UHGV virus genome: UHGV-0127092 | Source: a virus | Strand: one strand, 5' to 3' | Length of the DNA: 42,338 nucleotides | Shown: one piece after another, positions 13,625 through 14,016 of the stretch | Numbering within the stretch: the stretch's first letter is position 1 | How the letters are laid out: every line of letters begins with the position of its first letter | The notes under the pieces: model-generated | Told to the model about the DNA's origin: nothing | Database searches by the model: none | The model's input: only the letters and a program-made list of their open reading frames with translations | Position numbers and translations under genes: made by a program

Positions 13625-14016
13625 CAGAAACTTTACGCCGGGGGTTGAGACTTTTCCCGCGCTTCGTCCGCATTGTTGATCAGGTCAAGCGCCTGTTTGA
13701 GCAGACGTGAGTGCACGGGCCCGTAAATTTCACGCACCTGCTCTTCTTCGTCTACGCTGAATACCGGTTGCTTATCGGTGTCACACAGAACGTCAATGAA
13801 GAGCACCACGTCAGCGCAAAGATTACGGTGCGCCTTTTCCGATACCGACACATTTTCATCGTCGGCCCCCCCTTTCACCACCTCCTGCCAGCGCAGCCAG
13901 GCTTCACCTGACGGCTCACGGAGAACCACTTTGACGCCTTCCCACTCAGGAACGGCGACCGTCTTATGACGAAATCCCGACATCTTAGCCAGGGCGAGAT
14001 TTTTAATATTCTTCAT
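13346..14016 (-). CDS. Tail assembly chaperone GT fusion produced by programmed -1 frameshift
   Basis: G and T frames overlap between 13633 and 13684; slippery-like run CGGGAAAAG at about 13651-13659 lies in the overlap. Confidence 0.6.
13633..14016 (-). CDS. G: Tail assembly chaperone G
   Basis: 127-aa acidic protein directly upstream of the T frame and downstream of the major tail gene; canonical G/GT arrangement. Confidence 0.75.
   Translation of the reverse strand: MKNIKNLALAKMSGFRHKTVAVPEWEGVKVVLREPSGEAWLRWQEVVKGGADDENVSVSEKAHRNLCADVVLFIDVLCDTDKQPVFSVDEEEQVREIYGPVHSRLLKQALDLINNADEAREKSQPPA
13651..13659 (-). promoter_or_regulatory. Candidate -1 frameshift slippery site (GGGAAAAG) for G/GT
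   Basis: Minus-strand GCG CGG GAA AAG in the G frame; the -1 frame reads GGA AAA and continues into T. Confidence 0.5.

What the first reader, a model, noticed from the sequence alone, without database searches (positions are those of the whole stretch)
13633..13684. Programmed -1 frameshift joining tail chaperones G and T with a non-canonical slippery run
The T frame is -1 relative to G and open across about 50 nt of overlap. The overlap contains CGGGAAAAG, which resembles the lambda GGGAAAG site but is phased as CGG GAA AAG in the G frame, so slippage would be a single-tRNA Lys slip (A AAG to AAA G) rather than the canonical tandem slip.
Basis: partly seen in the sequence, partly recalled or inferred. 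Interest (0 to 1): 0.4.

Follow-up and report, generated by a model that had tools for sequence, protein, structure and literature searches.

The report
HK97-type G/GT tail chaperone frameshift
This is the long-annotated -1 ribosomal frameshift that fuses the two tail-assembly chaperone reading frames of phage HK97 (genes 13/14), here in a near-identical prophage copy, so it is real but ordinary.

Summary
On the minus strand, the chaperone gene G (14016..13633) overlaps a -1 frame that is open from 13684 and carries a T domain. The 52-nt overlap contains CGG GAA AAG in the G frame.

The overlap is base-for-base identical to phage HK97 genes 13/14. GenBank has annotated gp14 as "translated due to a -1 frameshift" since the original deposit. 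Of eight possible junctions, only ...EAREK|VSTPG..., a shift at GAA_AAG, exists as a deposited protein (AAF31104.1).

I compared 152 non-redundant relatives in 19 lineages. All have an in-phase A_AAG (one has A_AAA) 12-14 codons upstream of the T motif LALRxGRT. The lambda site G_GGA_AAG lies at the equivalent position.
- The codon before AAG varies: AAA in 10 lineages, GGA in 2, GCA in 4, GAA in 3.
- In most Klebsiella-type GCA_AAG loci the overlap is only 10-16 nt, so only a tRNA-Lys slip can reach the T frame.

The window's G_GAA_AAG is therefore a one-base variant of the lambda heptamer, at the boundary between the known hexanucleotide (NNA_AAG) and heptanucleotide classes. I found no downstream structure, upstream Shine-Dalgarno-like element or adjacent stop codon.

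The feature is already known.

The parts
13633..14016 (-). Gene G (HK97 gene 13 homologue), tail assembly chaperone, 127 aa including stop TAA at 13635..13633
   Evidence: ORF. Pfam PF06222 Phage_TAC_1, E 5.5e-60. Matches PDB 2OB9 'Tail assembly chaperone', E 3e-74. 93.7-94.4% aa identity to G of HK97 and close relatives.
13346..13684 (-). T reading frame, -1 relative to G. It opens after TGA at 13687..13685. The part translated after the shift is 13651..13346.
   Evidence: Pfam PF06223 Phage_tail_T, E 9e-20, on the fused product. PHROG 14766, a 224-position GT fusion family, matches both halves.
13633..13684 (-). G/T overlap of 52 nt, the only stretch in which a -1 shift can join the two frames
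   Evidence: Identical in sequence to HK97.
13651..13657 (-). Shift site G_GAA_AAG: G at 13657, GAA at 13656..13654 (P-site codon), AAG at 13653..13651 (A-site codon). tRNA-Lys re-pairs on AAA at 13654..13652 and the next codon read is GTC at 13651..13649.
   Evidence: Phasing. Invariant in HK97-like loci. Positionally equivalent to A_AAA_AAG and G_GGA_AAG in relatives and to lambda G_GGA_AAG. The deposited HK97 gp14 junction is EK|VSTPG.
13346..14016 (-). Predicted GT fusion (HK97 gp14 homologue): join(14016..13651, 13651..13346) on the minus strand, 223 aa, junction ...NNADEAREK|VSTPGVKFLMSLALRMGRTL...
   Evidence: Constructed. The HK97 version with this junction is the deposited AAF31104.1 / NP_037707.1.
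13622..13624 (-). ATG in the T frame that automatic pipelines use to call a separate 92-aa 'tail assembly protein T / DUF4035'. Probably not a real start.
   Evidence: Anti-Shine-Dalgarno duplex upstream is -1.7 kcal/mol, against -4.3 to -11.6 for the 12 other gene starts in this module. The T-frame peptide upstream of it (KVxxPGxxFL) is conserved across lineages. 92-aa annotations are listed.
14025..14468 (-). Major tail protein gene immediately upstream of G (context)
   Evidence: Pfam tail-tube families. 94% identical to the first 145 aa of HK97 gp12.
9803..13069 (-). Tape measure protein gene downstream (context), 1088 aa
   Evidence: ORF. Position matches HK97 gene H/gp16.

Best explanation
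A small fraction of ribosomes translating the tail-assembly chaperone gene G slip back one nucleotide at G_GAA_AAG (13657..13651, minus strand).

With GAA in the P site and AAG in the A site, the single E. coli-type tRNA-Lys (anticodon mnm5s2UUU) leaves AAG and re-pairs on the overlapping AAA. Reading then continues with GTC in the T frame. The product is a 223-aa GT fusion (...EAREK|VSTPG...), made alongside the abundant 127-aa G.

The P-site tRNA-Glu has at best near-cognate re-pairing: GAA to GGA, with a G.U pair in the middle position. The site is therefore a weakened, one-substitution version of the lambda G_GGA_AAG heptamer, and it works essentially as an A_AAG (NNA_AAG) site.

By analogy with lambda, G and the G part of GT coat the tape-measure protein, the T part recruits the major tail protein, and neither ends up in the virion.

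Shown here: the frames, the phasing, the homology, the positional conservation of A_AAG, and identity with HK97 and its deposited junction.

Inferred: that the shift is ribosomal, its efficiency (probably a few percent or less), which tRNAs move, and the assembly role.
For: Frames and phasing.

Homology: G is PF06222 and T is PF06223. The GT fusion family PHROG 14766 covers both halves.

Identity with HK97:
- The overlap is identical to HK97 genes 13/14, whose gp14 is annotated 'translated due to a -1 frameshift'.
- Of eight possible -1 junctions, only EAREK|VSTPG exists as a deposited protein (AAF31104.1, NP_037707.1).

Conservation:
- 259 of 260 related loci have an in-phase A_AAR 12-14 codons upstream of LALRxGRT.
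- Lineage counts are 10 with A_AAA_AAG/A, 2 with G_GGA_AAG, 4 with N_GCA_AAG and 3 with G_GAA_AAG.
- In most GCA_AAG-TAA loci the T frame opens only 10-16 nt before the end of G, so only a slip on A_AAG can reach it.
- Among HK97-like loci, CGG GAA AAG is invariant while flanking codons vary: CCG/CCA/CTG, TCT/TCG/TTG and GCG/GCA/GGG.
- The lambda G_GGA_AAG Lys lies at the same distance from the shared ...MGR motif, with 8 of 20 residues identical without gaps.

No independent T start: the T ATG has no Shine-Dalgarno sequence, and the T-frame peptide upstream of it is conserved.

Literature:
- A_AAG is the most shift-prone tetramer in E. coli (PMC4066793).
- NNA_AAG hexanucleotide sites, and 'G_GA' as an intermediate X_XX, are described in PMC5009743.
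- Two HK97-like chaperone genes gave 6-7% frameshifting in a reporter (PMC3711429).
Against: - No protein-level evidence was available to me for this window or for HK97 gp14. Xu et al. 2004 and Juhala et al. 2000 are not in the held library.
- No stimulator was found. Downstream folding is no better than shuffles (z -0.69 and +0.28). There is no conserved or covarying structure in 16 lineage representatives. The upstream anti-Shine-Dalgarno duplex is -3.2 kcal/mol, at the background mean of -3.8 +/- 2.7. No stop codon is adjacent.
- In reporter work, A_AAG without a stimulator is barely above background, about 0.15% against 0.11%. The efficiency here could be very low.
- An in-phase A_AAG in a 17-codon overlap has a chance probability of about 10%.
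- The comparative sample is phylogenetically clustered. Three of the four database scans were seeded on particular lineages.
Confidence: 0.85

Rival explanations
1. Same site, but a genuine tandem (two-tRNA) slip. tRNA-Glu in the P site re-pairs from GAA to GGA using a central G.U pair, while tRNA-Lys re-pairs from AAG to AAA. G_GAA_AAG would then behave as a weak heptamer rather than as a tetramer or hexamer.
For: The base 5' of GAA is G in both large GAA lineages and in L005: CGG GAA AAG, GTG GAA AAG and CGG GAA AAG. GAA_AAG lineages, unlike GCA_AAG lineages, lack the directly adjacent stop codon, which may mean they need less extra help. 'G_GA' is listed as a known intermediate X_XX in other systems (PMC5009743).
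Against: A_GAA_AAG variants exist: two loci, one unique sequence. There are only three independent GAA lineages, so the 5' G may reflect ancestry. GCA_AAG relatives show that the family can work with no P-site re-pairing at all. The protein product is the same either way, so sequence cannot decide.
Confidence: 0.3
2. No frameshift. T is made as a separate 92-aa protein from ATG 13624, by independent initiation or by termination-reinitiation after the G stop 8 nt upstream. This is how automatic pipelines annotate it.
For: An ATG exists at 13624, and most lineages keep a Met in the motif FLM. Many GenBank/RefSeq entries call a 92-aa 'phage tail assembly protein T / DUF4035'. The G stop and this ATG are close enough for translational coupling.
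Against: - No Shine-Dalgarno sequence: -1.7 kcal/mol, against -4.3 to -11.6 for the 12 other starts.
- The T-frame peptide between the slip Lys and this Met (KVxxPGxxFL) is conserved in length and sequence across lineages.
- KS9 has Leu in place of the Met.
- The invariance of an in-phase A_AAG at a fixed distance would be unexplained.
- Established knowledge for lambda: the frameshift yields the gpGT fusion, whose G part binds the tape measure and whose T part binds the major tail protein (review PMC5009743).
Confidence: 0.07
3. The -1 shift happens elsewhere in the 52-nt overlap. The main candidate is the C run CAA CCC CCG GCG TAA: tRNA-Pro slipping CCG to CCC while the ribosome approaches the stop.
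For: C_CCC-type runs are slippery, and C_CC.C and C_CC.U tetramers are measurably shifty in E. coli. The run lies inside the overlap, two codons before the stop.
Against: The run is not conserved even among close relatives: CCC CCA in L078, CCC CTG in L081 and L100. It is absent from all other lineages. The deposited HK97 protein does not use that junction.
Confidence: 0.04
4. Transcriptional slippage by RNA polymerase on the A run adds or removes a base in a fraction of mRNAs.
For: Relatives with AAA AAA AAG carry 8 consecutive A, close to lengths where slippage is known. The review cites runs of more than 7 A.
Against: The window and HK97 have only 4 A. GCA_AAG relatives have 3. That is far too short for polymerase slippage by established knowledge.
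Confidence: 0.01

Closest known systems
Phage HK97 genes 13/14 (gp13 tail assembly chaperone; gp14 made by a -1 frameshift), GenBank AF069529 / NC_002167; gp13 structure PDB 2OB9
   Same: 97.9% nucleotide identity over the aligned 705 nt of G and T, and 100% identity in the overlap and shift site. Same gene order: major tail, G, T, gp15 moron, tape measure. The deposited gp14 has the junction EK|VSTPG predicted here.
   Different: The first ~25 codons of G and the end of the upstream major tail gene differ. Nothing differs at the frameshift site.
Phage lambda G / GT frameshift at G_GGA_AAG (Levin, Hendrix & Casjens 1993; Xu, Hendrix & Duda 2004, 2013, 2014)
   Same: Same position between the tail tube and tape-measure genes, and same -1 direction. 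The T domain is homologous (PF06223). The slip Lys is at the same distance from the T-domain ...MGR motif. The A-site codon AAG is the same.
   Different: The G domains belong to different Pfam families; the window's is PF06222. The P-site codon is GAA here and GGA in lambda, so cognate P-site re-pairing is lost. BLASTP finds no pairwise alignment of the T parts; the homology is seen only at profile level.
A_AAG tetranucleotide / NNA_AAG hexanucleotide -1 frameshift sites: B. subtilis cdd A_CGA_AAG, IS1222 G_CGA_AAG, IS3-derived constructs (Licznar et al. 2003; Sharma et al. 2014, PMC4066793; review PMC5009743)
   Same: The obligatory event is tRNA-Lys re-pairing from AAG to AAA, with a preceding codon ending in A and no cognate P-site re-pairing.
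   Different: The studied cases reach percent-level shifting with a pseudoknot or hairpin (5.6% with the IS3 pseudoknot). No stimulator is detectable here.

Membership tests
Lambda-like G/GT tail assembly chaperone frameshift (Xu et al. 2004) | Two overlapping ORFs located between the major tail protein gene and the tape-measure gene | tested here: met
   Major tail gene 14468..14025, G 14016..13633, T frame 13684..13346, tape measure 13069..9803. A 62-codon moron (13288..13100) is inserted between T and the tape measure, as in HK97.
Lambda-like G/GT tail assembly chaperone frameshift (Xu et al. 2004) | The downstream ORF is in the -1 frame and lacks its own ribosome binding site | tested here: met
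   The -1 frame is shown and holds in all 22 relatives examined. The anti-Shine-Dalgarno duplex before the T ATG is -1.7 kcal/mol, against -4.3 to -11.6 for other starts.
Lambda-like G/GT tail assembly chaperone frameshift (Xu et al. 2004) | A slippery sequence within the overlap, conserved among relatives | tested here: met
   An in-phase A_AAR at a fixed distance from the T motif in 259 of 260 loci and in 19 of 19 lineages.
Lambda-like G/GT tail assembly chaperone frameshift (Xu et al. 2004) | A GT fusion protein is produced at a low ratio to G and is required for tail assembly | not testable with these tools
   Needs protein analysis and genetics. The only indirect evidence is 6-7% frameshifting for two HK97-like chaperone genes in a reporter (PMC3711429).
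HK97 gene 13/14 | Near-identical sequence with the same frames and the same annotated junction | tested here: met
Canonical X_XXY_YYZ heptanucleotide slip site | The P-site codon re-pairs cognately in the -1 frame (X_XX made of identical bases) | tested here: not met
   The heptamer is G_GAA_AAG. P-site GAA would re-pair on GGA with a G.U pair at the middle position.
Z_ZZN tetramer / NNA_AAG hexanucleotide -1 site | In-phase A_AAG with the preceding codon ending in A | tested here: met
   GAA_AAG in the G frame.
Z_ZZN tetramer / NNA_AAG hexanucleotide -1 site | An accompanying stimulator (downstream hairpin or pseudoknot 5-9 nt away, or an upstream Shine-Dalgarno-like sequence), as in the characterised examples | tested here: not met
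   Fold z-scores are -0.69 and +0.28. The only stable local hairpin starts 34 nt downstream and shows no covariation. The Shine-Dalgarno duplex is at background level.

The most novel reading that the evidence does not exclude
The HK97-type site may be a naturally used, essential frameshift that works on a bare A_AAG. It lacks cognate P-site re-pairing, an upstream Shine-Dalgarno-like sequence, a downstream structure and an adjacent stop codon.

Across the PF06222 chaperone family, 7 of 19 lineages have given up the canonical heptamer. The GCA_AAG lineages always keep a stop codon directly 3' of AAG, whereas the GAA_AAG lineages do not.

If this pattern has not been described, it suggests one of two things. 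Either tail assembly tolerates a much lower GT:G ratio than lambda's roughly 1:30, or an unrecognised stimulator acts here, such as codon context, the nascent peptide or G.U-mediated P-site re-pairing.
Probability: 0.2. Interest if true: 0.35.

Novelty: already known. Interest (0 to 1): 0.12.

Why it matters
It matters mainly for annotation. Automatic pipelines split this locus into G and a 92-aa 'protein T / DUF4035'. The biologically meaningful product is most likely the 223-aa GT fusion, join(14016..13651, 13651..13346).

Scientifically it adds little, because the frameshift and its junction have been in the HK97 GenBank record since the original deposit, and A_AAG slippage is textbook recoding.

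The family-wide survey made here is a modest by-product. It shows that A_AAG is the only invariant element, and that the P-site codon toggles between AAA, GGA, GCA and GAA. It gives a natural series of sites for testing how much P-site re-pairing and an adjacent stop codon contribute to -1 frameshifting.

Tried and rejected
Literature I could not reach:
- Xu et al. 2004 (PubMed 15469818) and Licznar et al. 2003 are not held. The published slip-site assignment and any protein evidence for HK97 gp14 could not be read.
- The supplementary tables of Antonov et al. 2013 that are held do not contain the tested chaperone cassettes. It is unknown which slip-site type gave 6-7%.
- A full-text search for 'GGAAAAG' plus 'frameshifting' found nothing.

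Stimulators looked for and not found:
- A downstream stimulatory structure. Single-sequence folds are no better than shuffles, and the consensus fold of 16 lineage representatives gives -3.25 kcal/mol with no covariation.
- The 8-bp hairpin UGCGCUCC/GGGGCGCA starts 34 nt after AAG and lies in codons for the conserved peptide ALRMGR. I rejected it as a stimulator because of that distance.
- An upstream Shine-Dalgarno-like element. For the window and HK97 the duplex is at background level. A few relatives (Bcep176, KS9, 733R4) do have one.
- Rfam has no match in the region.

Other rejected leads:
- The CCC CCG run as an alternative site, because it is not conserved.
- BLASTP of the window T part against lambda T gave no alignment. 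The relationship rests on Pfam PF06223 and the ungapped N-terminal match seen.

Script errors, corrected:
- The automatic motif labels had a phase bug and were ignored; only the printed codons were used.
- The first version of the survey script mis-located the G stop. It was corrected.

Full report
**What is in the sequence**

The tail genes of this window are on the minus strand. The order is:
- major tail protein, 14468..14025
- a 127-aa ORF, 14016..13633
- a second frame open from 13684 to 13346
- a 62-codon ORF, 13288..13100
- a 1088-aa tape-measure gene, 13069..9803

The 127-aa protein is a Phage_TAC_1 tail assembly chaperone (PF06222, E 5.5e-60). The second frame carries a Phage_tail_T domain (PF06223, E 9e-20). 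PHROG 14766, a 224-position family of GT fusion proteins, matches both halves in register.

The second frame is -1 relative to the first. It is closed by TGA at 13687..13685, and it overlaps G by exactly 52 nt, 13684..13633. Within the overlap the G frame reads GCG CGG GAA AAG TCT CAA CCC CCG GCG TAA. The T frame reads GCG GGA AAA GTC TCA ACC CCC GGC GTA AAG TTT CTG ATG.

**What it is**

The 705 nt covering most of G and all of T are 97.7-98.0% identical to phage HK97 and its close relatives mEpX1, HK75, HK633, HK446, HK106, mEp234 and HK544. The alignment with HK97 shows no difference from about codon 25 of G to beyond the end of T, so the whole overlap is identical.

In AF069529 and NC_002167, gene 13 is the 'tail assembly chaperone'. 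Gene 14 is a two-piece CDS annotated 'translated due to a -1 frameshift'. The next gene, 15, is 'moron product', followed by the tape measure.

I built all eight distinguishable -1 junctions for the HK97 sequence and looked them up by exact sequence. Only ...NNADEAREK|VSTPGVK... is in public databases, as AAF31104.1 / NP_037707.1. The crystal structure of HK97 gp13 is PDB 2OB9.

**Is the site more than chance?**

By itself it is not. An in-phase A_AAG occurs at 0.6% of codons in the structural genes here, which gives about a 10% chance of at least one in 17 codons. The argument rests on comparison with relatives.

I collected relatives from three sources:
- phage genomes (tblastn, 199 records; 13 divergent ones fetched)
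- one genome per species
- IMG/VR, three scans seeded on different lineages

I anchored each locus on the conserved T-frame motif LALRxGRT. In 259 of 260 loci there is an in-phase A_AAR inside the G/T overlap, 12-14 codons upstream of that motif. The exception is a Leclercia copy whose G frame is disrupted.

After removing redundancy, 152 unique sequences remain, in 19 lineages at 80% G-protein identity.

| Site type | Lineages | Note |
|---|---|---|
| A_AAA_AAG (one of them A_AAA_AAA) | 10 | canonical heptamer |
| G_GGA_AAG | 2 | canonical heptamer, as in lambda |
| N_GCA_AAG | 4 | no P-site re-pairing possible |
| G_GAA_AAG | 3 | HK97-like, Cronobacter ENT39118-like, one Superficieibacter prophage |

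The Lys codon is AAG in 18 of 19 lineages, although AAG is only 43% of Lys codons in this window. The preceding codon always ends in A.

Lambda itself reads GCG GGA AAG. Its post-shift peptide KVFDGELSFALKLAREMGRP aligns without gaps to the window's KVSTPGVKFLMSLALRMGRT, with 8 of 20 residues identical. The window's AAG is therefore positionally equivalent to the A-site codon of the classical lambda heptamer. G_GAA_AAG differs from G_GGA_AAG by one base. That change is Gly to Glu in G and is silent (GGG to GGA) in the T frame.

Among about 90 HK97-like loci, CGG GAA AAG never varies, while neighbouring codons do:
- TCT / TCG / TTG
- CCG / CCA / CTG
- GCG / GCA / GGG
- AAC / AAT / AGC
- GAC / GAA / GGC

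This removes the CCC CCG run as a candidate site.

**Which tRNAs move**

The Klebsiella-type relatives read GCT AAA GCA AAG TAA. In most of these loci the T frame opens only 10-16 nt before the end of G. tRNA-Ala cannot re-pair on AGC. The only route into the T frame is therefore tRNA-Lys moving from AAG to AAA, either in the A site or in the P site with the stop codon in the A site. So the family demonstrably uses single-tRNA A_AAG slippage.

For the window's G_GAA_AAG, the P-site tRNA-Glu could keep two Watson-Crick pairs plus a central G.U pair on GGA. The site is thus intermediate between a hexamer and a heptamer. The review by Atkins et al. lists 'G_GA' among such intermediates and describes NNA_AAG sites, including B. 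subtilis cdd and IS1222 (PMC5009743). Sequence alone cannot separate a pure single slip from a near-cognate tandem slip, and the protein product is the same in both cases.

**Stimulators and efficiency**

I found no stimulator.
- Downstream folds are no better than shuffled controls, with z-scores of -0.69 and +0.28.
- The consensus fold over 16 lineage representatives is -3.25 kcal/mol with no covariation.
- The one stable local hairpin begins 34 nt after AAG, inside codons for the conserved peptide.
- The upstream anti-Shine-Dalgarno duplex is -3.2 kcal/mol, against a background of -3.8 +/- 2.7.
- AAG is followed by five sense codons, whereas all GCA_AAG lineages and half of the A_AAA_AAG lineages have a stop directly after AAG.

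In E. coli reporters, A_AAG is the best tetramer. It gives 5.6% with the IS3 pseudoknot, but about 0.15% without a stimulator, against 0.11% background. G_GGA_AAG is among the best heptamers (PMC4066793). Two HK97-like chaperone genes of unstated site type gave 6-7% (PMC3711429). I therefore expect a low efficiency here, from a few percent down to a fraction of a percent.

**Rival explanations**

- Independent initiation of a 92-aa T at ATG 13624. This is how pipelines annotate it, but it is unlikely. The ATG has the weakest Shine-Dalgarno complementarity of 13 starts in the module (-1.7 kcal/mol). The T-frame peptide upstream of it is conserved. KS9 lacks the Met.
- Transcriptional slippage. 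This is excluded by the short A run.

**Function**

By homology with lambda, this is established knowledge summarised in PMC5009743, not tested here. G and the G part of GT bind the tape measure. The T part recruits the major tail protein. The ratio is about 30:1, and neither protein is in the virion.

**Verdict**

The feature is the already annotated HK97 gene 13/14 frameshift, and it uses a known class of slip site. Novelty: already known. Interest: low. The residual point of interest is that this essential frameshift appears to run on a nearly bare A_AAG, and that relatives toggle the P-site codon freely.

Noticed in passing
window 13100-13288 (-), terminator-like hairpin 13075-13094 (-): A 62-aa membrane-type ORF (Pfam YebO-like PF13974, E 1e-9; PHROG 5031) sits between T and the tape-measure gene. 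It has a strong Shine-Dalgarno sequence (-11.6 kcal/mol) and its own terminator. It corresponds to HK97 gene 15, annotated 'moron product'.
   Followed up: partly
window 14025-14468 (-) and the first ~25 codons of G (about 13940-14016): The major tail protein is 147 aa. It is 94% identical to the first 145 aa of HK97 gp12 (234 aa) but lacks the C-terminal ~90 residues. The mosaic breakpoint runs on into the 5' end of G, where identity to HK97 drops. The HK97 terminator between genes 12 and 13 is also absent.
   Followed up: partly
window 23517-23590 (-) and 36409-36506 (-): Rfam matches above gathering score to two Hfq-binding sRNA families: isrJ (65.1 bits, E 7e-10) and isrB (36.5 bits, just above threshold).
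   Followed up: no
L014, L016 and about 100 IMG/VR loci (Klebsiella-type), e.g. L014:1258-1300: These relatives read GCT AAA GCA AAG TAA. In most of them the T frame opens only 10-16 nt before the end of G, and the stop codon directly follows AAG. This makes a minimal A_AAG 'shifty stop' arrangement with no possible P-site re-pairing. An in-frame ATG also lies 5 nt after the stop, so reinitiation is a rival explanation in that lineage.
   Followed up: yes
L020 (Bcep176), L022 (KS9), L011 (vB_EcoS-733R4): These relatives have a strong Shine-Dalgarno-like sequence (GGGAGGAAG, GGAGGA, GAGG; -10.3, -9.5 and -7.7 kcal/mol) ending 6-10 nt upstream of the A-site codon. This resembles the dnaX arrangement and is absent from the HK97 type. 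KS9 uses A_AAA_AAA rather than ...AAG.
   Followed up: partly
L006 (Leclercia adecarboxylata NCTC13032), about 1780-1840: The G reading frame is shifted by an apparent 1-nt indel upstream of the slip site, giving a 114-aa product with an unrelated C-terminus. This is either a decaying prophage or an assembly error.
   Followed up: no
window 14489-14510 (-): A terminator-like hairpin (9 bp, 6 GC, T tail) lies just upstream of the major tail gene, at the position of a 'putative terminator' annotated in HK97.
   Followed up: no
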